DNA of 64,000 bases from a bacterium (GTDB lineage Bacteria; UBA8248; JACPRG01; G963555815). The notes beneath the pieces are model-generated. The model saw only the letters and a list, made by a program, of their open reading frames with translations. It did no database searches and was not told the DNA's origin. The stretch is from positions 444,132 through 508,131 of the forward strand of contig CBDFMI010000006.1 of the NCBI GenBank assembly GCA_965249615.1, read 5' to 3'. A program made the translations under genes and the position numbers. Position 1 is the stretch's first letter, and each line of letters opens with the position of its first letter. Positions 7,674 through 21,850 of the stretch are shown one piece after another.

Positions 7674-9794
7674 GTGGACGGTTTACAGTCAGATACTGGG
7701 AGCCGCTGGTCTCTTCTGTGGCGGGATTGTTTGGGGTGGCTATCGGTCTCAGCAGGTCTGGGTGTATTTGAATCGATCCTTCTGGCCTTCCAAAGACCTG
7801 AGATCAATCCCTTCGCAGTGATCGATCTTTTGGATCTCCTGAGCTCCGCCATCGTTTTAAATTCCTTGATGATTCTCCCAGTCTCAGCGGGCCATTTCCT
7901 CCTGTGTTTTCGCCTTTTGGGAGATCGCGACCGTCGGGCGCAGGGTCGAAACACGTTTTTATTCCACCTCGTTGTGTTCCTCGCGTTGGTGTTCACCATT
8001 TTTATTGGCCGAAGACTCATCTTCACGATCCCTGCAGCCATCGTGATCGCCACGGCCCTTTGGTTCGGACTGAAATATACACCCAGGCGGCTGGCCCGTA
8101 TGTTCGGGCTGGGTGTCACCGTTTTCCTGCTGGCCTTTCTTTCCTACGAATTTGCACGGCCATTTTATCCCCTAAAAAATCTCCGCGAGGTCCGGAACGA
8201 AGACAGCGCACTTCCAAATGTGCTCCTGGTGCTTGTGGATACGTTGCGGGCGGATCGGCTCTCCACATACGGCTATTCCAGGGAGACGTCCCCGTTCATT
8301 TCAAAGCTCGCGGGAGAGGGGGCGAAATTTACGAATTTCTATGCGAACGCGAGTTGGACTCCGCCGGCGACGGCAACGATTTTGACCGGCGTATTTCCCT
8401 CAATCCATGGAATAAACGGAACGTCGTTCCAAAAGAAGGCTCCGGTTAAGACGCTTTGTGAGGTTCTGCGCGGACACGGATACAACACGGCTGCGTTTGT
8501 CGCGAACCCATGGATCGGTGAGCGCAGTGGATTACTCGAAGGATGCGACTATCACAGCCCGATGTGGAACCCCTTTAGGCGAAACCACCAGAGACGTGAT
8601 GTCCCAGATCCATCCGCACCCTCTTTCCTGATCCTCGCCAGCGAGCCGATGCTGGAAAACATTTTCGTCTGGAGAAAGTTTGTTTTTTTGCCACGCATTT
8701 TCGTTTGGAATAGATTTGTTTCTTTGTCCGATAGGGTTGTAACCAGCCTTTTCATAATTGACAGGAAGAAGAGCCACCTCCTCCGCGGGGCATTTCGCCT
8801 AATTCAGGAGGTTGATGGAGATGGGAATGATAACCGAGAGGAGATAGAAAATCGCATTCCTCGTGCGGATGAGTTTACACATGGAGTCTTGAACTACGTC
8901 GATTATGTGGCATCGGTGGAAAACCATGATGGCCAAAGGACGAAATTCTTTATCTATCTGCACTATGTAGAACCGCATAGCCCGTATCAGTCACCTGGGC
9001 GCTATGGTCGCCTGTTTGATCCCCACTATCCGGATGAGCGTGTGACTGAGTATCCGGATCCGTCTGAAAATGGGACCACGCCGGAATTGCCGGATGCGCA
9101 GCTGCACAACCTTCAAGCACAATACGACGGAGAGACCCGTTACTTTGATGACAACTTCCAGTTCCTTTTCTCGAATCTAGAGGAAAGGGGGTTCGTGGAT
9201 AACACGTTGATTGTCTTTGTTTCTGACCATGGAGAGGAATTCTACGAGCATCGGGGATTTGGGCATGGGGGAACAGTCTTTGAGGAAGTGCTCAGAGTGC
9301 CTCCCATTTTATGGTACCCCGGCAGCTTGCCCGGCGGACTTGAGGTGGAGGAGCCGGGATCCCAGGTGGATCTAATGCCAACGATTATGGAGGTCCTCGG
9401 TCTTCCGGGGCCCGGGGATTTCCAGGGAAGAAGCTTGTTGCCGCTCATATATGGGGAGGAGAGCGGGGCGGCCATCTATGGAGAAAGCTCACGCGAGCCC
9501 CCTGGCCGCGAGCTTAGTTCTCATCGGTTTTTAGTTCATGGCCGATATAAATTTATCAACCAGGAAAAACCTGAGACAGAGCATGAAAAATTTCTTTTTG
9601 ACCTTCAGTTGGATCCGAACGAGCAAGAAAACATCTACGGCTCTGAAAAAAAGATAGCGGAAGAAATGGAGTTGCTACTGGAAAAATTCGTCACATTGGT
9701 CGAGAATGACCCCCGGTACTCTGAAAACCCAGAGGCCATCGGAGTTGACCCGGAACTGGAGGAGCGTCTGAAGGCTCTCGGATACGTTGAATGA
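7674..9794 (+). CDS. Membrane-anchored sulfatase-family (alkaline-phosphatase superfamily) protein, LtaS/EptA-like architecture, paralogue 1
   Basis: About 5 N-terminal TM helices, then VLLVLVDTLRADRLSTYGY, WTPPATATILTGVFPSIHG and VSDHGEEFYEH. Start codon is uncertain (GTG 7674). Confidence 0.8.
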   Translation: MDGLQSDTGSRWSLLWRDCLGWLSVSAGLGVFESILLAFQRPEINPFAVIDLLDLLSSAIVLNSLMILPVSAGHFLLCFRLLGDRDRRAQGRNTFLFHLVVFLALVFTIFIGRRLIFTIPAAIVIATALWFGLKYTPRRLARMFGLGVTVFLLAFLSYEFARPFYPLKNLREVRNEDSALPNVLLVLVDTLRADRLSTYGYSRETSPFISKLAGEGAKFTNFYANASWTPPATATILTGVFPSIHGINGTSFQKKAPVKTLCEVLRGHGYNTAAFVANPWIGERSGLLEGCDYHSPMWNPFRRNHQRRDVPDPSAPSFLILASEPMLENIFVWRKFVFLPRIFVWNRFVSLSDRVVTSLFIIDRKKSHLLRGAFRLIQEVDGDGNDNREEIENRIPRADEFTHGVLNYVDYVASVENHDGQRTKFFIYLHYVEPHSPYQSPGRYGRLFDPHYPDERVTEYPDPSENGTTPELPDAQLHNLQAQYDGETRYFDDNFQFLFSNLEERGFVDNTLIVFVSDHGEEFYEHRGFGHGGTVFEEVLRVPPILWYPGSLPGGLEVEEPGSQVDLMPTIMEVLGLPGPGDFQGRSLLPLIYGEESGAAIYGESSREPPGRELSSHRFLVHGRYKFINQEKPETEHEKFLFDLQLDPNEQENIYGSEKKIAEEMELLLEKFVTLVENDPRYSENPEAIGVDPELEERLKALGYVE

Positions 9795-9831
9795 AGGTTA
9801 AAGGGCTCGACTCGGACTTGGTGCACACAGC

Positions 9832-12039
9832 ATGAACCGCTGGTCCTTGCTTCGGCGAGATTTTTTGGGATGGCTGGCGGTTTCGGCAGGTCTGGGCGTA
9901 TTTGAATCGGTCTTGCTGGCCTTCCAAAGACCTAAGATCAACCCCTTCGCGGCCATCGATCTGGTCGCTCTTTCGATTTCTGCCGTCCTTTTCAACTCCC
10001 TGATGGTTCTACCCGTTTCACTCGGTCATTTTTTCTTGTATTGGCGGTTTTCTGGAGGCCACGACCATCAGGCGCAGGGCCGAAACGTCTTTTTATTTCA
10101 CCTCGTCGTGTTCCTCGCGGTTGCGTTCATCATTTTTATTGGCCGAAGGCTCATCCTTACGGTTCCTGCAACTATTCTGATGTCCGCGGGCCTTTGGTTC
10201 GGCCTTAGATATCTTTCGACAAGGATTGTTCGGGCATTTTCAGTAGGTGCCGGTATTTTCCTCTTGGCACTTTTTTCGTATGAGTCCCTCCGCTTGCCGC
10301 TCTATATCACAGACCCCGATTATGAACTATGGAAGTCGGAAGTTACGTTATGGGAGGAGGAAGACCCGCGATGTGAGACGCACCTGCGCTTCTCTACTCT
10401 CAACGGCGACCTGGGGTCCCTCGATTCCAGGAACTGTTCCAATTACTACCTGGAGAAGTTCAGGCAGGTAGAAGCGGAGCACCAATCACTGCCGAACGTT
10501 ATTCTGGTTCTTGTCGATACGCTTCGCCCCGATCACCTGTCCACATACGGCTATCATCGAGAGACATCGCCTTTTATTTCGAAGCTGGCGGCGGAGGGGC
10601 TAAAATTTACCAATTTCTATGCGAACGGTGCGTGGACCCCGCCGACGACTTCAACGCTTCTAACCGGCGTTTTTCCCGCAATCCATGGGATATATGAGCC
10701 TGGCGGGCAAAAGAGGGAGACAGTCAAAGTCATTTCTGAGACTCTCCGTGACTACGGCTATAACACAGCCGCCTTTATCGCGAATCCACTGATTACGAAA
10801 AGCACTGGGTTGCTGGACGGATATGATTATTTCTACCGAAAACCCAGGCCGCCGGTGTCGCGGCCGTCGTTGAGGCTCGCGAGCTTCCCCAGTCCGGAGA
10901 ACCTCCTCATATGGGTGAAGTTTCTGTCTCTGTCAGATAAGGTGGTCCAGGCGTTTCGGGGTTTTGATGGGAAGAAAAACGATCTTTTAGTTCAGATATT
11001 TCCCTTCAGCCGTGAATTAGAGCCAGAAAGACAGGAAAGGATACGGGAGGAATTCCGTTTCCCCCCCGCGGAAGTCGACATGGATAAAGAACTCGACTTC
11101 CCCCGGGCGAATGAAATGGCGAACGCGGTGCTGAATTACGTGGATTACGCCTTGGCAGGTCCTGACTTCGACGTTGTGCAAACGAAATTCTTCCTCTTTC
11201 TCCACGACATGGGTCCCCACGATCCTTATAAGTTGCCCACGCCATATGACGTCCTCTTCGACCCTGGGCGCCAGGATAGGCCGGAGGCCGAAGGGGCAGT
11301 CCGGTTTTTGGATGAGTCGCCGCCTGCGTCAGTTCGGGAGAGATTGGCCCATGATTTGCCGCTGTATGACGGAGCAATCCGTTTCTTCGATGATAATTTT
11401 CAGGTGCTCTTTTCGGAACTCAAGGAACGGGGGCTTTTGGACAATACCCTAGTGATCTTGCTGGCAGATCATGGGGAAGAATTCTATGAGCACGGTGAAA
11501 TTGGACATGGGGAGAAGGTCTTTGAGGAAATTGTCAGGATCCCCCTTGTCTTGTGGTATCCAGGGGAATTGCCCTAAGGGGTCGAGGTGAAGGAGTTCGG
11601 GTCGCAGGTGGATATAATACCCACGATCGTGGATGTTCTGGATCTGCCAGTACCAGAGGGGTTGCAGGGAAAGAGCCTCTTGCCCGCGATATCCGGGAGG
11701 GGGCTAGAGAGGGTTGTGTACGGAGAAAACTTGCGTGGTTCGCAGGATTTATCGTCGGGAGATATGTTGCGATTTTTGATCCATGGCCGATATAAACTCA
11801 TCACCATGGGGACACCTAAGACAGTGCGGGAAAAATTGCTCTTTGACCTCCAGTCGGACCCGCATGAGAAAAACAACATCTGCGGGTCTGAGAAAAAGAT
11901 AGCGGAAGAAATGGAATCGCTGCTAGAGGATTTCATCGCATTGGTGAAGAAGGACCCTAGGTATTCTGAAGACCTAGAGGCCGTTGAAGTGGACCCGGAA
12001 CTGCAGAAGCGTCTAAAGGCTCTCGGATACATTGAATGA
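9832..12039 (+). pseudogene. Paralogue 2 of the membrane-anchored sulfatase-family protein, interrupted by an in-frame TAA (11575-11577)
   Basis: Track ORFs 9832-11577 and 11587-12039 share one frame and together align along the whole of paralogue 1: ...WYPGELP*GVEVKEFGSQVDIIPT versus ...WYPGSLPGGLEVEEPGSQVDLMPT. Confidence 0.75.
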
Positions 12040-12129
12040 GGGTTAAAAAGTTCGCGTCGATCCTGGTGAAAAAGCAGGCTCACCTTTGGCCCGCGATCGG
12101 GTTTTTAGTTTGAGAGGACGTGGGTAAGA

Positions 12130-13806
12130 ATGTCCATCTCCAAGGTCGCCCTCCTGGGTCTTGACGGTGCCACCTTCTACCTCCTTCGCCCCTGGATGGA
12201 GGATGGAACGCTCCCCAATCTTGCGAACCTCCAAAAACGGGGAGCCTCTGGGGTCCTTGCCTCCACCGTTCCACCGGTGACACCGACGGCCTGGTCCACG
12301 TGCATCACGGGGGTAAACCCGGGAAAGCACGGGATATTCGATTTTCGAGATTCTCCCCTCCGTCATCCCGACCGCCCCCTTCTGAGTCTATCCTCTATCC
12401 GCGCCCCCCGGCTCTGGCAGCTCCTGAATGGGGTCGGGAAAAAGACCATCATCCTCAATGTCCCCATGACTTATCCACCTGAGGCGGTGGACGGGTGCAT
12501 GGTCTCGGGGATGATGACACCGGGGCCGGAGGCGAACTACACTTATCCCCTGGAACTCAAGGCGGAGATCCGTCGGGAGATCGGAGAGTACCTGCCGGAT
12601 ATCGACCTGCCCAAGTACGACGCCGAGCGTTATGAGGATGCCCTGGCATACCTGGACTTGATACGGAAAAGTTTTTCCCAGCGGGAAAAACTTTTCTTCC
12701 ACCTCATGGAGAACCGGCCCTGGGATTTCTTCATGGGGGTTTTCATCTTGCCCGACCGGCTCCAACACGTCTTCTGGAAATATCTGGACCCTGAGGCCGG
12801 GCTCTACGGGACCGAGATCGCCCAGCGGCTCCGAGGCTCGGTCATTGACTGCTATCGTCTGATGGATGATTTTATCGGGCGCCTCGTGGAGCGGCTTTCC
12901 TCTGATACCCTCCTTCTTATCATGTCGGACCACGGTTTTGGACCCACCCAGGCCTGGATCAACGTGAGCACCTGGCTGGAGCAGCAGGGTCTCCTCAAGA
13001 TGAGGGGCCAGATGGCCCTGCAGCGACGCCTCTTGTACCATGCTGTGGGGCTGAACGAGGTGGGCTGGCTAAAACGCCTTATCCCGCAGTCCCTTCAGGC
13101 CTTCGCCCGAAAACGGGTGCGTCAGACCAAGTCCGCCTTTCGGACCGACGTTCAGGTCACCCTGGACTGGGATCGGACCCAGGCCTTTTTTCCCAGCATT
13201 CCGGCTCAAGGGATCTACATCAATGTGGAGCGGGACGGAGCGGGGATCGTCCCCCCGGGGGAGGCCTACGAGGCCCTGCGCGCTCGGCTTCGCGATTCGT
13301 TGCTGGCCCTGAAGGACCCGGCGACAGGGGAACGGATCGTGGACGCGGTGCAGTATCGAGAAGAGGTCTACCACGGGCCCGAAACCCCCTACGCCCCGGA
13401 CCTGTTCTTCGTCGCCCGAAATTACAGCTACCTGGGCCGGCCGATGTTTGGGGGCCGAGAGGTCATCCGGTCGCGCGTCCAGGTGCCAAACGGCTTTCAC
13501 CGCCCCGACGGGATCTTCATGGCTCATGGACCTCACGTGGCCTCGGGCCGGGCGGTCACTGGCTCCCACATCGCTGACATCACCCCCACCATCCTCTATA
13601 GTCTCGGCCTCCCCGTCCCAAAAGAGATGGACGGAAAGCCTTTGTCGGAGATCTTTGAGGCGGACTTTCGGCCCGAGAAGAAGGGCCAAGAGGTGAGCGC
13701 TACTGAAAGTCCACAGCCGCCTGAGAGGACTCCCTCTGAGGCTTATCGTCCCGAGGAGGCCTCCGCCATCGAGAAACGCCTTCGGGCCCTGGGGTATGAG
13801 GACTGA
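12130..13806 (+). CDS. Type I phosphodiesterase/nucleotide pyrophosphatase-like (NPP, alkaline-phosphatase superfamily) protein 1
   Basis: ALLGLDGATF, PPVTPTAWSTCITGVNPGKHGIFDF and LLIMSDHGFG are metal-ligand and Thr-nucleophile motifs of the NPP family. Confidence 0.8.
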   Translation: MSISKVALLGLDGATFYLLRPWMEDGTLPNLANLQKRGASGVLASTVPPVTPTAWSTCITGVNPGKHGIFDFRDSPLRHPDRPLLSLSSIRAPRLWQLLNGVGKKTIILNVPMTYPPEAVDGCMVSGMMTPGPEANYTYPLELKAEIRREIGEYLPDIDLPKYDAERYEDALAYLDLIRKSFSQREKLFFHLMENRPWDFFMGVFILPDRLQHVFWKYLDPEAGLYGTEIAQRLRGSVIDCYRLMDDFIGRLVERLSSDTLLLIMSDHGFGPTQAWINVSTWLEQQGLLKMRGQMALQRRLLYHAVGLNEVGWLKRLIPQSLQAFARKRVRQTKSAFRTDVQVTLDWDRTQAFFPSIPAQGIYINVERDGAGIVPPGEAYEALRARLRDSLLALKDPATGERIVDAVQYREEVYHGPETPYAPDLFFVARNYSYLGRPMFGGREVIRSRVQVPNGFHRPDGIFMAHGPHVASGRAVTGSHIADITPTILYSLGLPVPKEMDGKPLSEIFEADFRPEKKGQEVSATESPQPPERTPSEAYRPEEASAIEKRLRALGYED

Positions 13807-13807
13807 G

Positions 13808-14878
13808 ATGGCAGGTCTGATGACGAAAGTCTCCCATGCCCTTCGAGGGGGTTGGGGGACCCTTTTGAAGGTCGGGGTGAGTGGACTGCTCATCCTTGTC
13901 CTCATTTGGCAGGTGGATTTCGATCGGCTTTGGGTCGTCGTCCGGGATATGTCCCCCGCCTGGCTCCTCCTGGCGCTCTTCTTCAAGTCGGGAGGGGTAT
14001 TCTCGAGCATCCTTCGGTGGCGAGTGCTTCTGAAGGGACAGGACCTCGCCGTCCCTTTAAAAGTCCTCACCTCCTCCTTTCTCGAAGGCCGTTTCTTCGG
14101 CACCTTCACGCCGAGCACCATCGGCCTTGACGCCTATCGAACGTATGACCTGGCCAAGTATTCCGGCCGAACAGCGGCCTCGGTTTCAGTCACATTGGTG
14201 GATAAGGTGATCGGGCTGTTCTCTCTCTCCTTTCTCGTGGCGGTCACCTCATTTGCCGGCGCCCGGTTTGTTGGAGGGCAAGGGGTCTTCTCCCTTCTCC
14301 TCGTCTTCTGTGTCCCCCTCTCCCTGTCCCTGATCTTTCTCCTTTTTCCGGGGCTCCTTGGCCGACTCGTCGACATCAGGAGGTGGAAATCAGGAGGATG
14401 GGCGGAGAAGATGGGCCGTTTCGTCGAAACCGTCACCGTCTATCGCCACCACCGGATCCTCATTGTTCAGGCGGTCGGGCTCGCTATCTTGGTCCACCTT
14501 GGGACCACGCTCATGTATTACGGGACGGCCCTTTCGGTGCAAGCCCCGGTCAGCCCCTTGGACATCCTCTTCGTTGGGCCCCTGATGATCACGGCGACGG
14601 TCATCCCTCTTTCTGTGGCCGGGATCGGGGTCCGTGAGGGGACCTTTGTCTTCTTCCTCACTCGGGTGGGGATCGAGGCGGAGGCCGCCATCCTTCTCGC
14701 CTTTCTCGGGTTCCTCGTAGGCGAGGTCATCAGCCTTTTCGGAGGCTTCATCTTCCTGTTGCGCTCCCACGCGTATCATCGGCGTGAGGGGGGGGTCGCC
14801 GGGGCCGCGGAAAGCGGCCTGGGCAAAGCCGGGGGTGAGGAAGAGGCCGTGGGGACAAAGAAAGAGATTGGCTCTTGA
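13808..14878 (+). CDS. UPF0104 / lysylphosphatidylglycerol-synthase-TM-region family 'flippase-like' membrane protein
   Basis: SILRWRVLLKGQ...FLEGRFFGTFTPSTIGLDAYRTYDL motif and about 8 TM helices. ATG 13808 lies 1 nt after the upstream TGA and is preceded by GAGGA. Confidence 0.75.
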   Translation: MAGLMTKVSHALRGGWGTLLKVGVSGLLILVLIWQVDFDRLWVVVRDMSPAWLLLALFFKSGGVFSSILRWRVLLKGQDLAVPLKVLTSSFLEGRFFGTFTPSTIGLDAYRTYDLAKYSGRTAASVSVTLVDKVIGLFSLSFLVAVTSFAGARFVGGQGVFSLLLVFCVPLSLSLIFLLFPGLLGRLVDIRRWKSGGWAEKMGRFVETVTVYRHHRILIVQAVGLAILVHLGTTLMYYGTALSVQAPVSPLDILFVGPLMITATVIPLSVAGIGVREGTFVFFLTRVGIEAEAAILLAFLGFLVGEVISLFGGFIFLLRSHAYHRREGGVAGAAESGLGKAGGEEEAVGTKKEIGS

Positions 14879-16551
14879 GACGCCTCCTCATCATCGGCGT
14901 CGACGCCGGCACCCTGGACCTCATCGAGCCGTGGGCCCGAGCGGGTGATCTCCCCCATCTGGCCCGTCTCCTCAGGGAGGGGGCCTATGGGCGAGTCCAG
15001 TCGACCCTCCCCCCCTCCACCTATCCCGCCTGGACCTCCTTCATGACCGGTCAGAACCCCGGGCGGCACGGTCTCGTGGACTTCACCTTGAGGGAGGGAG
15101 GGCGCTATGCCGTCAGATTCGCCAGCTCCCGAGACCGGCAAAGTGCTAGTTTGTGGGGGATCCTCAGTGAGGCCGGCCGAAGAGTCGCCGTCCTCGGCAT
15201 GCCCGCCACATACCCCCCTGAAGCCGTCAACGGCTGTATGGTCAGCGGATTCGACTCCCCCCTAGCATGGCGTCTCAACGAGAGCTTTTTTCATCCTCGA
15301 GGGCTCCACCGGGAGGTCATACAGGAGGCGGGACTCTTCCCGCTCTCGGCCTGCCGGGAGGATCGGATCGGAAAGGGCTGGCACGAGCGGGCCTATCGGG
15401 AGATCCTGAAATCACTGGAGCAAGAAACTCGCGTGGCGGAGTACCTCCTGGGCCGGGAAGCGTGGGATTGCTTCTGCGTCGTCTTCGGCCAGACAGATAC
15501 GGTGTGCCATCATTTCTGGAAATTCTTCGACCCATCCTCTCCCCGATATGACTCAGAGGGGGCGAGGCGCTTTGGAGACGCCATCCGTCAAGTCTATCGG
15601 CGTGTGGATTCAGCCATCGGTTCCCTGCTGCAAAAGGCGCCCGATGACGTCACGGTCCTCATCGTCTCGGACCACGGAGCGGGGGGGGCAGGAAACCAGA
15701 TTATTCATTTAAACGCTTGGCTGGCCGGGGAGGGCCATCTGACCTTTCGAAAGGGGGGGGTGGGCTACCGTGCCCTTTCAGCCCTGAAGACGCTGGGCCT
15801 CGGCTATCTCCCGAGGAGGGTTCAAGAACAGGTCTTTCGTGCGGGCGGGGGCAGGCTGGCAAATGGGCTAGAATCCCGCTTGCGTTTCGGCCAGATCGAA
15901 TGGGCGAAGACCCGGGTCTATTCCGAGGAGCTGGGTTATTTCCCCTCTCTTTGGATCAACCTTCGGGGGAGGGAGCCTCAGGGGACGGTGGAGCCCGGCA
16001 GGGAATATGAGGATCTGAGGGACGAGATCATCAGCCGCTTAGAGGTTCTCAGACACCCCGTCACGGGGAGGCGCCTCGTTGAGCGGGCCGTTCGGCGAGA
16101 GGAGGTTTATTGGGGCCCCTTTGTGGACCGGGTTCCTGACATTCTCCTGGAGCTCGCCCTCGACGAGGGCTATAGCTACTCCTGCCTTCGAAGTCCAGCC
16201 CGCTCCCAGGGCCCCTTCGTTCGCTCTCTCCAGAGAGCGGAGGGGGCCAGGGGCCAGGGGATGAACGGCTCACACCGACCAGAGGGGTTTTTCGTTCTCT
16301 CGGGTGAGGGGGTGCGCCCGGGGAAGTGCCGGTTCACCCCCCATCTCATGGACTTTGCCCCGACGCTTCTCGCCCTTTTGGGGATCACCCCTTCGGTGGG
16401 GATGGACGGTCGGGTCTTGGAAGAAGTCCTGAGCGTCCCTGAGCCTCATCCCGTCCCCGTCGCCGTGGCAGGGGAAGAGACGCCTTCGGCGGCCCAGGGG
16501 TGGGAAGGCACGGCCTTCCGGCGGCTTCGGGACCTTGGATACCTGGAATGA
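14875..16551 (+). CDS. NPP-like alkaline-phosphatase-superfamily protein 2
   Basis: Paralogue of 12130-13806 (IIGVDAGTLD, PPSTYPAWTSFMTGQNPGRHGLVDF, LIVSDHGAGG). The TTG start overlaps the upstream stop (TTGA). Confidence 0.8.
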   Translation: MRRLLIIGVDAGTLDLIEPWARAGDLPHLARLLREGAYGRVQSTLPPSTYPAWTSFMTGQNPGRHGLVDFTLREGGRYAVRFASSRDRQSASLWGILSEAGRRVAVLGMPATYPPEAVNGCMVSGFDSPLAWRLNESFFHPRGLHREVIQEAGLFPLSACREDRIGKGWHERAYREILKSLEQETRVAEYLLGREAWDCFCVVFGQTDTVCHHFWKFFDPSSPRYDSEGARRFGDAIRQVYRRVDSAIGSLLQKAPDDVTVLIVSDHGAGGAGNQIIHLNAWLAGEGHLTFRKGGVGYRALSALKTLGLGYLPRRVQEQVFRAGGGRLANGLESRLRFGQIEWAKTRVYSEELGYFPSLWINLRGREPQGTVEPGREYEDLRDEIISRLEVLRHPVTGRRLVERAVRREEVYWGPFVDRVPDILLELALDEGYSYSCLRSPARSQGPFVRSLQRAEGARGQGMNGSHRPEGFFVLSGEGVRPGKCRFTPHLMDFAPTLLALLGITPSVGMDGRVLEEVLSVPEPHPVPVAVAGEETPSAAQGWEGTAFRRLRDLGYLE

Positions 16552-17768
16552 GTGGAGAGAAAGGATCTCGTCGGAAGGTGGCCATGGTGGCCCCCTGTCC
16601 CTTCCCAAGCGTTCAGGGCTCCCAGATCCTGATCCAGGATCTGGCCGGGGGCCTCGAGAGGAGGGGACACGAGGTCCACGTGGTCACTTACCCCTTCGGG
16701 GGCTCCCGTCCGACCGCTTCCTTGCGGATCCACCGGGCTGCCTGTCCCCTTCGTTATGCCGTGGACCACCCGGGCCCTCATCTCTATAAACCTTTTCTGG
16801 ACCTCTTCGTCTTGAGAGAGCTCCTGCGGGTCATCCGCGGGGAGGGGATTGAGCTCCTCCACGCCCACAGCTATGAGGGGTTGCTCATCTCCCTGCTGGC
16901 CGGAAGGTGGACGGGCATTCCCGTCCTCTATCACAGCCACACCCTCCTCGAGGAGGAGCTCCCCACCTATTTTCGGGCCTCGTGGAAGCGCGCCCTGGCG
17001 CATTGGGTGGGCCGACTGCTGGACCGACAGCTTCCGCGTCGGTCAGACCATTGCATTGCCCTTTGTCAGAGAACCCTTGGGGCCTTTCGGGCCTTGGGGG
17101 TGGCGGCGGATCGCTCTTCCTGCATTCGTCCTCTGATCTTTTCCCCCGCCGATAAAACTCCTTCCAGGGTGGATGTAGAGCGCCATCCCTTCATCCTCTA
17201 TACGGGAAACCTCCACCCGTATCAGGATCTCAATCTCCTGATGGAGGGGTTCGCCGAGGTGGCCTCGAGGCTCTCAGAGGTCCGCCTGGTTATCGCCACC
17301 CATTCTGACCCTTCCCATTACGCCGCCCTGGCAAGGGCCCTGGGGCTGTCGGAGCGGGTCTCCTTTCGCGTGAAACCTCCCTTGGATGAAGAGTGGGGTT
17401 TGATGCGGAGGGCCGACCTCCTCGTCTGTCCGCGCCTTCGGTGCTCCGGCTACCCCATCAAGCTTTTGAACTACCTGGCGGCTGGAAGGCCCATCCTCGT
17501 CAGTGAGGGCTCGGCCGAGGGGATTCGCCATGGCGAGAACGGCTACGTTGTCTCTCGGCCTGAACCGAAAACCCTGGCGGAGGGGGCTATTCAAATCCTT
17601 CAGTCCCCCGCCTTGGCAAAACGGTTGGGCGAAGGGGCGGCCCGGACCTACCGGGAGGAGGTGGCGGAAGAGCGCTCCTTGTCGGCCATCGAGGCCATCT
17701 ACACGCAGTGTCTGGGGGAGGAGGGGAACGCGGCCCTCCTCGCCCACCCGAGGGAAATGGCCTCATGA
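16548..17768 (+). CDS. Glycosyltransferase family 4 (GT-B fold)
   Basis: KVAMVAPCPFPSVQGSQILIQDLAGGLERRGHEVHVVT N-terminal and C-terminal GYPIKLLNYLAAGRPILVSEGSAEGIRHGENGYVV (E-x7-E region). The ATG overlaps the upstream stop (ATGA). Confidence 0.85.
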   Translation: MSGEKGSRRKVAMVAPCPFPSVQGSQILIQDLAGGLERRGHEVHVVTYPFGGSRPTASLRIHRAACPLRYAVDHPGPHLYKPFLDLFVLRELLRVIRGEGIELLHAHSYEGLLISLLAGRWTGIPVLYHSHTLLEEELPTYFRASWKRALAHWVGRLLDRQLPRRSDHCIALCQRTLGAFRALGVAADRSSCIRPLIFSPADKTPSRVDVERHPFILYTGNLHPYQDLNLLMEGFAEVASRLSEVRLVIATHSDPSHYAALARALGLSERVSFRVKPPLDEEWGLMRRADLLVCPRLRCSGYPIKLLNYLAAGRPILVSEGSAEGIRHGENGYVVSRPEPKTLAEGAIQILQSPALAKRLGEGAARTYREEVAEERSLSAIEAIYTQCLGEEGNAALLAHPREMAS

Positions 17769-19168
17769 CCAAGGTCTTGATCCTGGGCCTCGATTGCGCA
17801 GACCCTCGCCTGGTCTTTGACCGCTGGCGACAAGAACTTCCGAACCTCAGACAGCTCATGGAGGCCGGCGTCTGGGGCCCTCTTCAGAGCACCATCCCCC
17901 CCATCACGGTCCCAGCCTGGGCCTGCATGATGACGGGGCGGGACCCTGGAGAGCTAGGGATCTATGGGTTCCGAAACCGGACCTCCTATCAGTACGGGGC
18001 CCTGGGGATCACCAGCTCTCTCTCGGTCCAAGAGGAGACCCTGTGGGACATCCTGGGCCGCACCGGCCGGGAGGTGGTGGTCGTCGGGGTCCCTCCTTCA
18101 TATCCTGTGAAGCCCGTCCGGGGCAGCCTCATCTCCTGCTTTCTCACCCCGAACGCCGAGGTCCCTTTCACGCATCCCCCTGAGCTCAAGGAGGAGGTTC
18201 AGCGTCTTGCCGGCGGGTACCTGTTTGACGTGGAGGGATTCCGGACCGACGACAAGCCCCGGCTCCTCCAACAGATCCACGAGATGACAGAAAAACGCTT
18301 TAGGGTCCTGAAACACCTACTCACCCGAAAGCCGTGGGACTTTTTTATGTCGATGGAGATCGGGGTGGACCGCATGCATCACGGCTTTTGGAAATTTCAC
18401 GATGAGGGCCACATCAAGCACCCCCCGCAAAACCCCTATCAGCACGTCATTCTGGACTATTACCGCTATGTGGACAAGGAGATCGGTGAGCTGGTGGAGT
18501 CCGTCGACGAGGACACGGTCATCATCGTCCTCTCTGATCACGGGGTGAAGAGGATGGAGGGGGGGCTGTGCGTCAACGAATGGCTCATGAAGCAGAAATA
18601 TCTGAGCCTCTCCGCCTACCCCAAGGAGCTCACCTCCCTCAGCAAGCTCGATGTGAACTGGGACCGGACCATGGTCTGGGGAGAAGGGGGGTACTATGGC
18701 CGGATCTATCTCAACGTAAAGGGCCGGGAACCCCAGGGGGTCATCGCCCCAAATGACGTGGAGAAGATCCGGGCAGAGCTGAAACAGGGCATGGAAGAGC
18801 TTTCCGACGAATCAGGGCGCCCCCTCGGGACCCGCGTATTCTATCCCGAGGAGGTCTATCAGGAGGTCCGGAGGATCCCGCCCGATCTCATCGTCTATTT
18901 TGGAGACCTGGACTGGCGCTCTGTCGGGACCGTGGGCCATGGCTCGATCCACACCCGAGAGAATGACACGGGCCCTGACGACGCCAACCACGACACCCAC
19001 GGGATATTCATCATGGCGAAGAAGGCGGACCTCAAAGGGGGCGGGACCGGTCTGGGAACCCGCCTCGACGGTCTCAGCCTCTACGACGTGACCCCCACCG
19101 TCCTGGACCTCCTTGGCCTTCCCATCCCACCCTCGATGCACGGGCGAGTGATTTCTCCTAGAGCCTGA
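17765..19168 (+). CDS. NPP-like alkaline-phosphatase-superfamily protein 3 (divergent)
   Basis: LILGLDCADP, PPITVPAWACMMTGRDPGELGIYGF and IVLSDHGV. ATGA overlap with the GT4 gene. It lacks the shared C-terminal tail, and the HG of the TG-x-x-PG-x-HG motif is LG here. Confidence 0.8.
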   Translation: MTKVLILGLDCADPRLVFDRWRQELPNLRQLMEAGVWGPLQSTIPPITVPAWACMMTGRDPGELGIYGFRNRTSYQYGALGITSSLSVQEETLWDILGRTGREVVVVGVPPSYPVKPVRGSLISCFLTPNAEVPFTHPPELKEEVQRLAGGYLFDVEGFRTDDKPRLLQQIHEMTEKRFRVLKHLLTRKPWDFFMSMEIGVDRMHHGFWKFHDEGHIKHPPQNPYQHVILDYYRYVDKEIGELVESVDEDTVIIVLSDHGVKRMEGGLCVNEWLMKQKYLSLSAYPKELTSLSKLDVNWDRTMVWGEGGYYGRIYLNVKGREPQGVIAPNDVEKIRAELKQGMEELSDESGRPLGTRVFYPEEVYQEVRRIPPDLIVYFGDLDWRSVGTVGHGSIHTRENDTGPDDANHDTHGIFIMAKKADLKGGGTGLGTRLDGLSLYDVTPTVLDLLGLPIPPSMHGRVISPRA

Positions 19169-19208
19169 TCGGTCCGCCTGTCTGGCTGAAAGAACCGCCA
19201 GAAAAAGC

Positions 19209-19236
19209 TTGACGGGGAAAAATGGGTGTATATACT
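19209..19236 (+). promoter_or_regulatory. Strong sigma70-like promoter (TTGACG-N16-TATACT); copy A of a 40-nt conserved element
   Basis: TTGACG at 19209-19214 and TATACT at 19231-19236. The 40-nt block 19201-19240 matches 35889-35928 at 35/40 positions (hand count). Confidence 0.5.
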
Positions 19237-19305
19237 CGTTGTATCGGAAGAGACTGAAGGAGACGGAATTTCAGTCCGAGAGCGGGGCCACGCAATGGAG
19301 CAGAA

Positions 19306-20034
19306 ATGGCCCAGGAGGGGGTGAACATGGGCGAGCTTTCTTCCACGGCGAAGCGTGCTGTCTCAGCCTACGGCGGGGCCGATCGCTGGCGAAACGCACG
19401 GGCCATCGAGGCTGTGGTCTCGGCCAACGGCTTGGGCTTCCGCTTGAAGTGGCGGCGTCCTGCCCCAAATGCGGACGTCCGGGTGGAGATAGCGGAACCG
19501 GTCGTCAGGATGGATCTCAAAGATAGCGAGGGGCACATCGGCGTGATGGACCGGGGAGACGTGAGGATTGAGACGTCTTCTGGTAAAGTCGTGGCCTCAC
19601 GGCCGAATCCAGAACACCTGTTTCCCTACGGGCGAAGGGCTTTTTGGTGGGATCGGCTCGACCAGATCTACTTCTCAGGGTACGCCTTGTGGAACTACAT
19701 GACGCTTCCGGCCCTGTTGCTCAGGGACGACATCCAATGGGAGGAGCTCAGAGAGGGGAGCCTTCAGGCGCGTTTTCCCAAACATCTTCCAACACATTGC
19801 GAGGTGCAGCAGTTTCATTTCGAGCCGGCCACAGGGCTCCTGCGCCAGCTCGACTACACGGCGGAGGCCTTCGGAAACTGGGCCAAGGCCGCGAACGTGG
19901 TTTTGGAGCACGGCGAATCGGAGGGGATTCCTTATCCTTCACTGCGTCGGGTTACCCCGCGCCGAGGGGACGGCAGCCCGCGCAAGGGGCCGCTCCTCGT
20001 CGGGATCGAATTCCATCGATTCCGGCTCGTCTAG
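19306..20034 (+). CDS. Hypothetical protein (no signal peptide, no recognised domain)
   Basis: Long ORF with codon usage like its neighbours, located downstream of the promoter-like element. It ends 8 nt before the convergent cysC stop. Start may be 19306 or 19327. Confidence 0.5.
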   Translation: MAQEGVNMGELSSTAKRAVSAYGGADRWRNARAIEAVVSANGLGFRLKWRRPAPNADVRVEIAEPVVRMDLKDSEGHIGVMDRGDVRIETSSGKVVASRPNPEHLFPYGRRAFWWDRLDQIYFSGYALWNYMTLPALLLRDDIQWEELREGSLQARFPKHLPTHCEVQQFHFEPATGLLRQLDYTAEAFGNWAKAANVVLEHGESEGIPYPSLRRVTPRRGDGSPRKGPLLVGIEFHRFRLV

Positions 20035-20042
20035 TCCCCAAT

Positions 20043-20675
20043 CTAGTCGATATATCCCAAGCCCTTCAGTTTGGCCTGGATGGTCTGCTTCTCTTCCTCG
20101 GAATAGACGTAATCGGCGGGCTCGATGTAACCGAATTCTTCCAGCCGAGAGAGAATATGCGCGACAGATTCCTTAACCGACTCTTTGTCCGTCTCGACGG
20201 TTATCTCGGGGTTGAGGGGCTCTTCATAGGGGTCTGAGACCCCCGTAAAATTCTTAATCTCACCCTTAAAAGCTTTCGCGTACATCCCTTTCACGTCCCG
20301 TTCTGCGCAGACCTCAACAGGGCATTTGACGTAGAGCTCCACGAAGCGCCCCACCTCGGCCCTTACGGCGTCTCGGATGGCCCGGTAGGGGGCGATGACC
20401 GCCGCCATGTTGGGAACCCCGTTTCGGGTCAAGAGGTGACAGAGGTATCCCAGGCGAATGATGTGCTTATCGCGGTCCTCTTTGGAGAAGCCGAGGTCGG
20501 CGCTGAGATTGCGGCGCACTTCGTCGCCGTCGAAGACCTCGACGTTCGGAAAACCGCGCTCGTGAAGTTTCTCTCCGAGAAGAACGGCAATCGTGCTTTT
20601 CCCTGAGCAGGGAAGGCCTGTGAACCAGACCGTGAACCCTCTGGGTTTATCTTTGATCACTTTCTCTCTCCTCAA
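20043..20675 (-). CDS. cysC: Adenylylsulfate (APS) kinase with C-terminal extension
   Basis: GFTVWFTGLPCSGKSTIA P-loop and FDGDEVRRNLSADLGFSKEDRDKHIIRLGY. An extra tail of about 35 aa ends in LKGLGYID. Confidence 0.9.
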   Translation of the reverse strand: MRREKVIKDKPRGFTVWFTGLPCSGKSTIAVLLGEKLHERGFPNVEVFDGDEVRRNLSADLGFSKEDRDKHIIRLGYLCHLLTRNGVPNMAAVIAPYRAIRDAVRAEVGRFVELYVKCPVEVCAERDVKGMYAKAFKGEIKNFTGVSDPYEEPLNPEITVETDKESVKESVAHILSRLEEFGYIEPADYVYSEEEKQTIQAKLKGLGYID

Positions 20676-21850
20676 GAGCCGCCGTCAGAACCCTGTCCTG
20701 CCCGCTCGGCGTAAGCCTGGTGCAAGACCCGGGCGACTTCAGGCCGCATCACCTCCGGGGGTGGAAGCTCCCCGCGGTCTAAAATTTCCCTCACACGAGT
20801 TCCGCTCAGGAAGACGCGCTCTTTCTCCCCGTGGGGGCAGGTCTTGGCCGTTATCATGGCCTCACACCCACGGCAGTAGAAGGCGTGGTCGAAGAAGAGA
20901 GGGGTGATCCCGATCTCCGAGGCCTCGAACTCGTGGAAGATATGGTGGGCGTCATAGGAGCCGTAGTAAGACCCGACGCCGGCGTGGTCCCGGCCCACGA
21001 TGAAATGGGTACAGCCGTAGTTCTTTCGCACGATAGCGTGGAAGATGGCCTCCTTCGGCCCGGCGTAGCGCATGGCCGCCGGAAACACGGAGAGGACCGT
21101 CCGGTTCTTGGGAAAATAGCTCTCCAGGATCACCCTGTAGGAGGCCATCCGGAGGTCCGCCGCCAGGTCGCCCTCCTTGGTGGCCCCGACCAGGGGATGA
21201 AGTAGGAGGCCGTCCACACATTCTAGGGCGCACTTCTGAATGTACTCGTGGGCGCGATGAATGGGGTTTCGGGTCTGGAAGGCCACGACCGTCTTCCACC
21301 CCTTGAGCTGAAAGAGAAGGCGGGTCTCCTTGGGTTCCAGATGGAAGTTGGACCACTCGGTGGCGGCCCCTCTTCGAAGGAGTTTAATAGGCCCCCCGAT
21401 GAGGACAGGGCCTCGCTCGAAGACCTGGCGAACCCCGGGGTGGTCCGAATCTTTTGTCCCGAAGACCTGCTCCACCTCCCTCTCCTTGTCCGGCTTCCAC
21501 TGAGAGGTGACCCGAAGAAGCCCGGTCGTTTCCTTCCCGACCGTGAGGGTAATCTCGTCACCTATGGAAAGGGTCTGGGCCGTCTTCTCATCCACGCCGA
21601 GGACGATGGGAAGCGTCCAGGGAAGGCCCAAGGCGAGGCGCTGGTCTTCCACCACAGCCTGGTAGTCCTCCTCCTCCATGAATCCCCTTAGGGGGCTGTA
21701 GGCCCCCGTCGCGATGAGTTCGAGATCGGAATGCTCCTGGGCCGACAGGGCGATTTTCGGCAGCCCTTGGGCTTTTTTGTCCAAGGCGGGCCGATCCTCC
21801 TCCCGGACCATCCGGTCGACGAGGACCCCGCCGTGCGGTTTGATAGGCAC
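20672..21850 (-). CDS. sat: Sulfate adenylyltransferase (ATP sulfurylase, homo-oligomeric Sat type)
   Basis: QTRNPIHRAHEYIQK, HPLVGATKEGD and GRDHAGVG motifs. 4-nt overlap with cysC. Confidence 0.9.
   Translation of the reverse strand: MPIKPHGGVLVDRMVREEDRPALDKKAQGLPKIALSAQEHSDLELIATGAYSPLRGFMEEEDYQAVVEDQRLALGLPWTLPIVLGVDEKTAQTLSIGDEITLTVGKETTGLLRVTSQWKPDKEREVEQVFGTKDSDHPGVRQVFERGPVLIGGPIKLLRRGAATEWSNFHLEPKETRLLFQLKGWKTVVAFQTRNPIHRAHEYIQKCALECVDGLLLHPLVGATKEGDLAADLRMASYRVILESYFPKNRTVLSVFPAAMRYAGPKEAIFHAIVRKNYGCTHFIVGRDHAGVGSYYGSYDAHHIFHEFEASEIGITPLFFDHAFYCRGCEAMITAKTCPHGEKERVFLSGTRVREILDRGELPPPEVMRPEVARVLHQAYAERAGQGSDGGS

What the first reader, a model, noticed from the sequence alone, without database searches (positions are those of the whole stretch)
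9768..20069. Shared C-terminal tail L-[KR]-x-LGY-[VILE]-[ED] on five proteins of three unrelated folds, including the APS kinase
Five proteins within 12 kb end with the same tail directly before the stop codon. They are ...EERLKALGYVE (9768-9794), ...QKRLKALGYIE (12013-12039), ...EKRLRALGYED (13780-13806), ...FRRLRDLGYLE (16525-16551) and, on the opposite strand, CysC ...QAKLKGLGYID (20043-20069). The carriers are membrane sulfatase-family proteins, soluble NPP-like proteins and a P-loop kinase. In CysC the tail sits on an extension of about 35 aa that holds a second copy (LEEFGYIE). NPP3, the GT4 and the flippase-like protein lack it. Inference: this is a short linear C-terminal motif for docking to a common partner, for sorting, or for Tyr modification. 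It would functionally tie PAPS synthesis to the AP-superfamily operon. I cannot assign it to a described sorting signal. No TM helix follows it, unlike PEP-CTERM or LPXTG-type signals.
Basis: seen in the sequence. Interest (0 to 1): 0.7.

Follow-up and report, generated by a model that had tools for sequence, protein, structure and literature searches.

The report
Portable C-terminal "LGY" tail module
Five neighbouring proteins end in the same short helix-plus-"LGY" tail, and this tail is a widespread, apparently undescribed add-on peptide on sulfate-activating enzymes, alkaline-phosphatase-type enzymes and small regulators encoded together in many bacterial phyla, most likely to make them stick to a common partner or to each other.

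Summary
L[KR]xLGY[VILE][ED] occurs five times in all six frames of the window, each time directly before the stop codon of a real gene (expected 1.4e-5).

It is not a local oddity. The tail is kept in 110/120 CysC homologues, 136/150 diverse NPP-like representatives and 120/120 homologues of a small RHH regulator. In sulfatase-type homologues it is C-terminal in 46/120 and lies upstream of a TPR domain in 20/120.

The full module is about 20 residues: [YF][ST]xEE-x3-Φ-x2-[RK]L-x2-LGYΦ. It follows a variable linker and is predicted helical. Other carriers are DUF2061, a sulfotransferase, PAPS_reduct-family proteins and TPR lipoproteins.

Tailed CysC is linked to NPP-like genes (Fisher p = 1.6e-6). 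A conserved operon is RHH(tail)-sat-NPP3-type(no tail)-cysC(tail).

- The window shows two folds, not three.
- "LEEFGYIE" is the kinase's own last helix.
- One carrier has an in-frame stop.
- Some carriers are exported, so one cytoplasmic partner cannot serve them all.

Best reading (about 0.45): a portable docking or assembly helix, with AP-superfamily domains or other tails as the likely receptor. No Pfam or NCBIfam model and no paper describing it was found.

The parts
7674..9794 (+). Membrane-anchored sulfatase-family (AP superfamily) protein 1, 706 aa. Tail ...DPELEERLKALGYVE is at 9768-9791.
   Evidence: Pfam Sulfatase 1.4e-43. Motif position. Five to six N-terminal TM segments, with K/R-rich loops at residues 84-93 and 134-139. 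From these I infer the catalytic domain and tail face outwards. TPPAT replaces the CxPxR formylglycine motif (read from the sequence).
9832..12039 (+). Sulfatase-family paralogue 2, interrupted by an in-frame TAA at 11575-11577. Tail ...DPELQKRLKALGYIE is at 12013-12036.
   Evidence: The tail DNA is 25/27 identical to paralogue 1, so this is a recent duplicate.
12130..13806 (+). Cytoplasmic NPP-like (Phosphodiest) protein NPP1, 558 aa. The full tail module Y539-D558 is at 13744-13803 (YRPEEASAIEKRLRALGYED).
   Evidence: Pfam PF01663 5e-35. AF2: catalytic domain blocks mostly pLDDT >90, linker 521-540 at 58-68, helix 541-553 at 84. 136/150 diverse family representatives keep the tail. L551, G555 and Y556 are invariant in 81 sequences.
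13796..14878 (+). Flippase-like membrane protein (LPG_synthase_TM), no tail. A conserved neighbour of the system.
   Evidence: Pfam PF03706 2e-33. The same family sits beside the sat-NPP3-cysC operon in L083, L084, L206, L208 and L209, divergently in the last three.
14875..16551 (+). Cytoplasmic NPP-like protein NPP2, 558 aa. Shortened tail ...AFRRLRDLGYLE is at 16525-16548.
   Evidence: Pfam PF01663 5.6e-43. Motif position. The orthologue in L084 ends ...SSRRLKDLGYLE.
16500..17768 (+). GT4 glycosyltransferase, no tail.
   Evidence: Pfam Glyco_transf_4 and Glycos_transf_1.
17708..19168 (+). NPP3-type AP-superfamily protein with no tail. It ends ...PIPPSMHGRVISPRA. This is the member that lies directly beside cysC and sat in many phyla, and it is a candidate receptor.
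   Evidence: Pfam PF01663 9.5e-51. The sat/NPP3-type/cysC adjacency is seen in L004, L005, L006, L028, L042, L050, L075, L082-L085 and L206-L209.
19306..20034 (+). 242-aa protein of unknown function between NPP3 and cysC, no tail. Whether it belongs to the system is uncertain.
   Evidence: No Pfam or NCBIfam hit. Among the loci examined it recurs only in the near-identical contig L081.
20043..20675 (-). APS kinase CysC, 210 aa. Its own last helix ...LSRLEEFGYIE is at about 20121-20153. The added extension and tail module (residues 186-210, PADYVYSEEEKQTIQAKLKGLGYID) is at 20046-20120.
   Evidence: Pfam APS_kinase 1.8e-55. Solved kinases end at residue 184-185 of the query. 110/120 homologues carry Y[ST]xEEE..IKxRLxxLGY[LI]. 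AF2 gives helix 193-206 with pLDDT 81-87.
20672..21850 (-). ATP sulfurylase (Sat), no tail. Operon partner of cysC.
   Evidence: PUA_2 and ATP-sulfurylase are assigned to the 392-aa orthologue in L081. That ORF scores 795 bits against the window protein.

Best explanation
The tail is a portable C-terminal peptide module of about 13-20 residues. A variable, probably flexible linker comes first, often followed by an acidic [YF][ST]xEE stretch. Then comes a three-turn amphipathic helix (Φ-x2-[RK]-L-x2-L) closed by an invariant Gly-Tyr-Φ. That ending fits the Schellman helix-cap pattern.

I propose it is a tethered protein-protein docking or assembly helix. It would hold together the enzymes, and the small RHH regulators, of a conserved and uncharacterised gene cluster. 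That cluster couples sulfate activation (Sat, CysC, giving PAPS) to AP-superfamily enzymes, a flippase-like protein and glycosyltransferases, probably to modify an envelope lipid or glycan.

The most likely receptor is the AP-superfamily catalytic domain itself. Tail-less NPP3-type enzymes would receive the tails of CysC, the RHH proteins and the other carriers in trans. Tail-bearing NPP and sulfatase enzymes would bind their own tail or that of a neighbouring subunit. Tail-to-tail bundling is the second option.

Shown: the existence of the module, its conservation, its portability across folds, its helical prediction and its genomic linkage. Inferred: that it binds anything, and what it binds.
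For: 1. Same module on unrelated folds. An HMM built only from NPP tails was run against 1.74 M aa of six-frame ORFs. It scores CysC tails up to 33 bits, RHH-A 20-35, RHH-B 16-23 and DUF2061 14. All 36 hits of 13 bits or more lie 0-2 residues from a stop. CysC's own last helix scores 7.8 or less.
2. Deep conservation behind non-conserved linkers. The tail is kept in 136/150 NPP representatives that are under 50% identical to each other. It is kept in 110/120 CysC and 120/120 RHH-A homologues. L551, G555 and Y556 are invariant.
3. AF2 predicts a helix after a low-confidence linker in NPP1: linker 58-68, tail 84. In CysC the helix is 193-206 with pLDDT 81-87.
4. Linkage. Tailed CysC and an NPP-like neighbour co-occur in 9/11 loci against 6/65, p = 1.6e-6.
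5. Operon. RHH-A(tail)-sat-NPP3(no tail)-cysC(tail)-NPPs-RHH-B(tail) is found whether the search is seeded from CysC or from RHH-A.
6. Non-AP carriers often sit next to tail-less AP genes. Examples: sulfotransferase L152, RHH-C L107, PAPS_reduct L102/L187/L203, DUF2061 L085. In L059 the pattern is reversed: the NPP3-type has the tail and no CysC with a tail was found in that 10-kb locus.
7. In 45-aa RHH proteins the tail cannot be an integral part of a large fold. RHH plus linker plus C-terminal helix is the architecture by which RHH antitoxins bind partners (own knowledge).
Against: - No binding was tested, and no multimer prediction or model coordinates were available.
- The CysC linker and tail have fairly high pLDDT (81-87). 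This is also compatible with packing in cis.
- The tail occurs on both cytoplasmic and exported proteins: lipobox sulfatases P0274 and P0289, TPR lipoproteins, and probably the window's membrane sulfatases. One receptor cannot serve all of them unless the receptor is the carrier's own fold class.
- Some NPP3-cysC pairs have no tail at all: L006, L028, L045, L075.
- Most PAPS_reduct-family carriers have no AP gene in the available flank.
- LxxLGY is a generic helix-cap pattern, and weak look-alikes exist, such as the PG_binding domains.
Confidence: 0.45

Rival explanations
1. The tail is a purely intramolecular or homo-oligomeric structural element. It would be a favourable terminal helix with a Schellman cap that latches onto the carrier's own domain or subunit. 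Different families would have acquired it independently or by exon-like shuffling, and no shared partner would exist.
For: - CysC's own last helix already ends LxxLGYI and is part of the solved fold.
- The P. syringae CysD chain 1zun_A ends ...[11 protein letters not shown], and PAPS_reduct-family proteins end ...MERLRDLGYM.
- In sulfatase-TPR fusions the motif marks the end of the sulfatase domain rather than the end of the protein.
- Carriers exist in both compartments.
- AF2 pLDDT for the CysC tail is 81-87.
Against: - The 20-residue similarity, including [YF][ST]xEE, is as strong between folds as within the NPP family.
- A linker that varies in sequence and length precedes the tail.
- The tail makes up about a quarter of the 62-75-aa RHH proteins.
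- This reading does not explain why the CysC extension tracks NPP neighbours.
Confidence: 0.25
2. The tail is a membrane-targeting amphipathic helix of the MinD or FtsA type. It would bring soluble enzymes and regulators to the membrane where the flippase-like protein and the lipid-linked substrate sit. This would work on either face of the membrane.
For: - CysC tails are cationic and amphipathic (KIKKRLKALGYL).
- The cluster encodes membrane proteins: LPG_synthase_TM, the membrane sulfatases and DUF2061.
- Carriers occur on both sides of the membrane.
Against: - Most NPP and window tails are net acidic or neutral (EERLRGLGYLE) and follow a poly-Glu stretch.
- Specific residues (R-L, L-G-Y) are invariant, whereas membrane helices usually conserve only amphipathicity (own knowledge).
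- The hydrophobic face is small.
Confidence: 0.08
3. The tail is a site of covalent modification, or a pseudosubstrate. The invariant Tyr, or the upstream [YF][ST], would be sulfated, phosphorylated or nucleotidylated, or would be inserted into an AP-superfamily or PAPS-binding active site to regulate it.
For: - The Tyr is invariant.
- Carriers are enriched for enzymes that bind PAPS or related nucleotides or act on sulfate or phosphate esters: CysC, sulfotransferase, PAPS_reduct, sulfatase and NPP.
- An acidic stretch lies next to the upstream Tyr/Ser.
- AP-superfamily enzymes can modify proteins, for example pilin phospho-form transferases (own knowledge).
Against: - No evidence for any modification is obtainable here.
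- The Tyr next to the C-terminus is flanked by basic and hydrophobic residues, not acidic ones.
- The Gly-Tyr-Φ pattern is explained more simply as a helix cap with a hydrophobic anchor.
Confidence: 0.07
4. The tail is a sorting or secretion signal, a compartment (encapsulin or BMC) targeting peptide, or a degron.
For: A C-terminal position after a flexible linker on functionally linked, structurally unrelated proteins is the hallmark of cargo-loading peptides (own knowledge).
Against: - No TM helix or basic cluster follows the motif.
- Most carriers lack signal peptides.
- No encapsulin, BMC shell, sortase or exosortase family appears in the Pfam-annotated neighbourhoods.
- The C-terminal residue is not fixed: nothing, D, E, G or S can follow GYΦ.
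- The motif can be internal.
Confidence: 0.04

Closest known systems
CysE C-terminal tail docking into the CysK active site (cysteine synthase complex), mimicked by unrelated proteins such as CdiA-CT
   Same: It is a short C-terminal peptide on a sulfur-assimilation enzyme that mediates complex formation. Unrelated proteins carry look-alike tails to reach the same receptor (own knowledge; the complex is the subject of PMC6829319, listed).
   Different: The sequence differs (...GDGI, with an essential terminal Ile carboxylate). Its receptor is known and it is not helical. Here the residue after GYΦ varies and the motif can be internal. No CysK link was seen.
Encapsulin cargo-loading peptides and BMC encapsulation peptides
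   Same: A short, often helical terminal peptide follows a flexible linker. It is shared by structurally unrelated enzymes encoded in one cluster.
   Different: No shell protein gene appears in any annotated neighbourhood. Carriers here include DNA-binding RHH proteins, a membrane protein and exported proteins.
C-terminal partner-binding tails of ribbon-helix-helix antitoxins and repressors (RelB, ParD, CcdA; the Mnt tetramerisation helix)
   Same: RHH-A, RHH-B and RHH-C have the same build: an RHH domain of about 45 aa, a linker and a C-terminal helix. Sources name RHH-A 'CopG family' or 'Arc/MetJ-type RHH regulator'.
   Different: No toxin gene is present. The tail sequence is shared with metabolic enzymes of the operon, which is not a known feature of toxin-antitoxin systems.
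C-terminus of CysD and the PAPS_reduct (PF01507) family
   Same: These proteins end ...ME.LR.LGY[MF] (metagenome carriers) or ...[10 protein letters not shown] (P. syringae CysD 1zun_A). They are also sulfate-activation proteins.
   Different: The ending is preceded by a family-specific ERxGRxxDKE segment rather than a variable linker. The tail HMM scores them only 17-19 bits. This may be an integral fold element or an older relative of the module.
EEVD-type C-terminal peptides bound by TPR domains
   Same: The motif abuts TPR repeats in sulfatase-TPR fusions. It also ends TPR lipoproteins.
   Different: The sequence is different. No TPR protein recurs next to the cytoplasmic carriers. Binding was not tested.

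Membership tests
Sortase/exosortase-type C-terminal sorting signals (LPXTG, PEP-CTERM, GlyGly-CTERM) | The signature motif is followed by a hydrophobic TM helix and a basic cluster. | tested here: not met
   The stop codon follows 0-2 residues after GYΦ in all 36 HMM hits of 13 bits or more in the window and genome loci.
Sortase/exosortase-type C-terminal sorting signals (LPXTG, PEP-CTERM, GlyGly-CTERM) | Carriers have N-terminal signal peptides, and a cognate sorting enzyme is encoded in the genome. | tested here: not met
   CysC, NPP1, NPP2 and the RHH proteins start directly with their domains. No sortase or exosortase Pfam family appears in the neighbourhoods. Whole genomes could not be checked.
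Encapsulin or BMC cargo-targeting peptides | A shell protein gene (Linocin_M18/HK97-fold or BMC domain) lies in or near the cargo operon. | tested here: not met
   None is present among the Pfam-annotated genes of L081-L085 and L206-L209.
Schellman-type helix C-cap | Pattern: hydrophobic at C3, Gly at C', hydrophobic at C'' (h-x-x-x-G-h) at the end of a helix. | tested here: met
   L-x-x-L-G-Y, with L551, G555 and Y556 invariant. DSSP helices end just before the Gly: 541-553 in NPP1 and 193-206 in CysC. The pattern definition is from my own knowledge.
APS kinase (CysC) for the carrier at 20043-20675 | P-loop kinase domain matching PF01583/TIGR00455 above the cut-off. | tested here: met
   PF01583 187.6 bits and TIGR00455 211.7 bits. 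Synechocystis 5cb6 matches at E = 2.9e-56.
Formylglycine-dependent sulfatases for the carriers at 7674-12039 | C/S-x-P-x-R motif that supplies the formylglycine nucleophile. | tested here: not met
   The sequence reads ...NASW-T-P-P-A-T-ATILTG at the aligned position (aligned by eye). Every NCBIfam sulfatase equivalog falls far below its cut-off. These are Sulfatase-fold proteins, probably with a Thr nucleophile like LtaS and EptA (inference).
NPP/Phosphodiest branch of the AP superfamily for NPP1-3 | PF01663 match and an NPP-like fold. | tested here: met
   PF01663 at 5e-35 to 9.5e-51. Foldseek best hits are Xac NPP, PhnA and ENPP1/3 with probability 1.00 but only 12-16% identity, so this is a distant, structurally uncharacterised subfamily.
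Any described short-domain model covering the tail (Pfam-A 2025, NCBIfam 20.0) | A profile that matches the tail peptide. | tested here: not met
   Tail peptides and whole RHH carriers were scanned at E up to 10. Only sub-threshold PG_binding, Bro-N and FitA-like RHH hits came back, and none covers the tail specifically.

The most novel reading that the evidence does not exclude
The LGY tail is the address label of an unrecognised multi-enzyme machine found across many bacterial phyla. In it, AP-superfamily enzymes act as docking hubs for the PAPS-forming kinase, sulfotransferases and accessory proteins that build a sulfated or phospho-modified envelope molecule. The operon's RHH repressors carry the same label. 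Free hub capacity would therefore feed back on transcription through competition between repressor tails and enzyme tails.
Probability: 0.15. Interest if true: 0.85.

Novelty: new variant of a known kind. Interest (0 to 1): 0.7.

Why it matters
Short terminal peptides that wire enzymes into complexes are hard to find and few are known in bacteria. This one is strongly conserved and sits on at least eight unrelated protein families. It marks a conserved but unstudied operon that joins sulfate activation to cytoplasmic and exported alkaline-phosphatase-type enzymes.

If it is a docking element, three things follow:
- It gives a direct handle (peptide pull-downs, truncations) for finding out what these abundant 'alkaline phosphatase family' and 'sulfatase' proteins do.
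- It gives a simple sequence rule for recognising members of the system in genomes.
- It offers a possible new example of a regulator that shares a binding tag with the enzymes it controls.

If the tail is only a structural cap, it is still a striking case of one terminal helix being reused across folds.

Tried and rejected
Tool calls that gave nothing:
- An exact-sequence look-up of the window CysC with its TTG start found nothing. The 98%-identical P0001 was used instead.
The accepted pattern fixes GC-rich codons, so the carrier proportions are biased, for example towards one highly conserved PAPS_reduct clade.
- Literature searches (LGYL, ALGYL, DUF2061, APS kinase with AP superfamily, C-terminal extension, sulfatase with TPR motif) returned nothing relevant.
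- Single-linkage clustering of all six-frame ORFs was polluted by shadow ORFs. It was used only to spot the membrane protein that follows RHH-B.
- AF2 coordinates and PAE are not exposed, so cis contacts of the tails could not be measured.

Explanations rejected:
- Chance.
- A repeated DNA element.
- Paralogy alone, because CysC, the RHH proteins and DUF2061 are unrelated to the AP enzymes.
- A sorting signal, or an encapsulin or BMC tag, because there is no TM helix, no signal peptide and no shell gene.
- The idea that the CysC tail is just a duplicate of its own last helix. That helix scores 7.8 bits or less against the tail HMM, while the tail scores 28.


Full report
**1. The observation**

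ORF listing and a six-frame regular-expression scan confirm the finding. L[KR]xLGY[VILE][ED] occurs exactly five times in the window, each time immediately before a stop codon:
- 9768-9791 (+)
- 12013-12036 (+)
- 13780-13803 (+)
- 16525-16548 (+)
- 20046-20069 (-)

Even the loose form [LIVM][KR]x[LIVM]GY has no further match in any frame.

With the window's own amino-acid composition the strict motif has a probability of 6e-8 per position. That gives 1.4e-5 expected at the 239 ORF ends, and 0 of 2000 shuffles gave a C-terminal match.

The coding DNA of the five tails is only 14-19/27 identical between families. The exception is the two sulfatase paralogues at 25/27. Selection therefore acts on the peptide, and this is not a repeated DNA element.

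The carriers are two membrane Sulfatase-family proteins, two Phosphodiest/NPP-like proteins and APS kinase. NPP3, the GT4 and the LPG_synthase_TM flippase-like protein lack the tail.

**2. Corrections to the description**

- The second sulfatase gene carries an in-frame TAA at 11575-11577.
- The Sulfatase and Phosphodiest families are both alkaline-phosphatase-superfamily folds. The window therefore shows two folds and three independent lineages.
- 'LEEFGYIE' in CysC is not a second docking copy. It aligns with the extreme C-terminus of solved APS kinases (5cb6, 2gks, 8a8h), which end at query residue 184-185. The true extension is residues 186-210.

**3. Conservation in orthologues**

- CysC. 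Among the 120 best homologues, 110 end Y[ST]xEEE..[IV]Kx[RK]LxxLGY[LI], and five more have K[IT]RGYL. Sources name some of them as Nitrospinota, Poribacteria, Syntrophobacterales and other groups. Most stop right after GYΦ. The extra acidic residue seen in all five window tails recurs in the related L083/L084 contigs.
- NPP-like family. A search with NPP1 against 1.84 billion cluster representatives returned 150 proteins that are under 50% identical to each other. Of these, 136 end ...[YF][ST]xEE...Φ..RL[KR]xLGYΦ[DEGS]? after a linker that varies in sequence and length. In an 81-sequence alignment L551, G555 and Y556 are invariant.
- Sulfatase family. Of 120 homologues, 46 end with ...(D)PExxERLRALGY[VIL]x. 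Another 20 carry the same motif 200 aa or more from the end. In the TPR-annotated fusions it reads ...ERLRALGYVGGS and TPR repeats follow.

**4. One module on many folds**

I built an HMM from 140 NPP tails only (22 columns). I ran it against all six-frame ORFs of the window plus 85 loci, 1.74 M aa in total. Scores were:
- CysC tails: up to 33 bits
- RHH-A: 20-35 bits
- RHH-B: 16-23 bits
- DUF2061: 13.9 bits
- Window sulfatases: 11.5-12.2 bits
- CysC's own last helix: 7.8 bits or less

All 36 hits of 13 bits or more lie 0-2 residues from a stop codon.

Further carriers came from two sources: the genome loci around CysC and a family-agnostic, codon-biased DNA-pattern scan of metagenomes. The additional carriers are:
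- Three kinds of small RHH-like proteins. For RHH-A, 120/120 homologues keep the tail, and sources call them CopG or Arc/MetJ-type regulators.
- A DUF2061 membrane protein.
- A sulfotransferase (PF13469/PF00685).
- PAPS_reduct-family proteins ending ...ERAGRAQDKEDLMERLRDLGYM. For comparison, P. syringae CysD (1zun_A) ends ...[11 protein letters not shown].
- TPR lipoproteins.
- Cytoplasmic as well as exported sulfatase-type proteins.

No Pfam-A or NCBIfam model matches the tail. No solved structure covers it in CysC or in the sulfatases.

**5. Genomic linkage**

In 76 scorable genome loci seeded only by the kinase domain, CysC with the extension has an NPP-like gene within 10 kb in 9/11 cases. 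Tail-less CysC has one in 6/65 cases (Fisher p = 1.6e-6).

The recurring core is sat, a tail-less NPP3-type gene of 436-486 aa, and cysC, directly adjacent to one another.

Seeding independently from RHH-A recovers a fuller operon in Latescibacterota and Krumholzibacteria. A divergently transcribed flippase-like gene (LPG_synthase_TM) lies upstream. The operon then runs:
1. RHH-A (tail)
2. sat (present in L207-L209, absent from L206)
3. NPP3-type (no tail)
4. cysC (tail)

In L206 the operon continues with:
5. A cytoplasmic NPP
6. Two exported NPPs
7. RHH-B (tail)
8. A further gene that runs off the locus end. In five other loci the gene after RHH-B is a membrane protein of about 270 aa.

The window holds a variant of this system with two extra membrane sulfatases and a GT4.

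**6. Structure predictions**

AF2 with alignments gives a confident kinase core for CysC. The extension forms a helix at 193-206 with pLDDT 81-87.

For NPP1, most blocks of the catalytic domain have pLDDT above 90. The linker (521-540) scores 58-68, and the tail is a helix at 541-553 with pLDDT 84.

The nearest solved folds to NPP1 are Xac NPP, PhnA and ENPPs at only 12-16% identity.

Helix, then Gly, then an aromatic residue, with hydrophobic residues at i-4 and i-1 of the Gly, fits the Schellman cap pattern (own knowledge).

**7. Compartments**

CysC, NPP1/2/3, the RHH proteins and many sulfatase-type carriers start directly with their domains and have no signal peptide.

Other carriers are clearly exported. 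P0274 and P0289 have lipoboxes. So do the L147-type TPR lipoproteins and the sulfatase in L101.

The window's membrane sulfatases have five to six TM segments with K/R-rich loops at 84-93 and 134-139. By the positive-inside rule this places the catalytic domain and tail outside the cytoplasm (inference).

One soluble cytoplasmic receptor therefore cannot serve all five window tails.

**8. Interpretation**

The following points argue for recognition of something common:
- A conserved peptide of about 20 residues follows non-conserved linkers.
- It has six conserved hydrophobic positions that must be buried somewhere.
- It is shared by unrelated folds, including 62-75-aa RHH proteins.
- It is confined to one kind of gene neighbourhood.

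I therefore favour a docking or assembly helix (about 0.45).

The receptor hypothesis that explains most of the facts is the AP-superfamily domain itself. It accounts for these observations:
- AP enzymes of two families, in both compartments, are the main carriers.
- Non-AP carriers tend to sit beside tail-less AP genes.
- L059 shows the reverse arrangement, with the tail on the NPP3-type protein.

Tail-to-tail bundling is the alternative. It would explain why a membrane protein (DUF2061) and DNA-binding proteins carry the tag rather than a receptor.

The main rival (about 0.25) is a cis or homo-oligomeric latch with no shared partner. The evidence for it:
- the kinase's own LGYI ending;
- the CysD/PAPS_reduct endings;
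- the sulfatase|TPR junction position;
- the fairly high pLDDT of the CysC linker.

Membrane binding, Tyr/Ser modification or pseudosubstrate roles, and sorting, encapsulation or degron roles are less likely. The reasons are given under the rival explanations.

**9. Novelty and verdict**

I found no profile, solved structure or paper that describes the tail. The searchable literature is limited, and motif strings are poor search terms.

By kind, it resembles known terminal docking peptides:
- the CysE tail binding CysK;
- cargo-loading peptides;
- RHH antitoxin tails.

By sequence, carrier set and context it is new.

The mechanism remains inferred.

Noticed in passing
window 11575-11577: An in-frame TAA interrupts the second membrane sulfatase paralogue (...WYPGELP*GVEVKEFGSQVD...). 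It is either a pseudogene or a sequencing error. The downstream part still ends with an intact tail.
   Followed up: partly
window 8001-12000: The two sulfatase paralogues lie in a stretch with GC 0.52, against about 0.60 for the rest of the window. This could mean recent acquisition followed by tandem duplication.
   Followed up: no
window 7674-12039: Both sulfatase-family proteins have T-P-P-A-T where true sulfatases have C/S-x-P-x-R. They are probably Thr-nucleophile transferases or hydrolases like LtaS and EptA, not formylglycine sulfatases.
   Followed up: partly
window 17708-21850; L004, L005, L028, L042, L050, L075, L082, L208, L209: The triad sat, NPP3-type AP-superfamily gene and cysC is conserved and directly adjacent across many phyla. 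This suggests the NPP3-type enzyme acts on APS, PAPS or PAP, for example as a CysQ-like PAP phosphatase substitute or as a PAPS-using transferase. I found no characterisation of it.
   Followed up: partly
L002 15150-16339; L007 7292-8752; L008 12618-14177; L040 5114-6597; L073 8142-9276: In these five loci the RHH-B gene (with tail) is followed by a gene for a membrane protein of about 270 aa. That protein has N- and C-terminal TM segments and no Pfam hit. It looks like a fixed two-gene unit inside the larger cluster.
   Followed up: partly
L081 (ERZ25071923:contig_13, 272 kb): A contig with 98%-identical CysC carries the same cluster, but the NPP and flippase-like genes are split into many short called genes. 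This is probably due to indel errors in that assembly.
   Followed up: no
L095, L096, L100, L108 and about 50 other metagenome loci: A PAPS_reduct-family clade of 320-440 aa has an almost invariant ending ...TTERAGRAQDKEDLMERLRDLGYM. P. syringae CysD (1zun_A) ends ...[25 protein letters not shown]. A GY[MF] terminus may therefore be an old feature of this PP-loop family.
   Followed up: partly
P0304, P0312, P0318, P0324 and others (sulfatase-TPR fusions); L098, L130, L147 (TPR lipoproteins): In exported proteins the motif sits directly before a TPR domain (...ERLRALGYVGGS then TPR) or directly after TPR-like repeats (...GGLDPAEIERLKSLGYL). This hints that TPR domains might be its periplasmic binding partner.
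   Followed up: no
window 22046-23464 (-): A Thy1 (ThyX)-family gene of 472 aa lies next to sat, followed by NADH-dehydrogenase/antiporter-like subunit genes. The same order is seen in L081 and L083.
   Followed up: no
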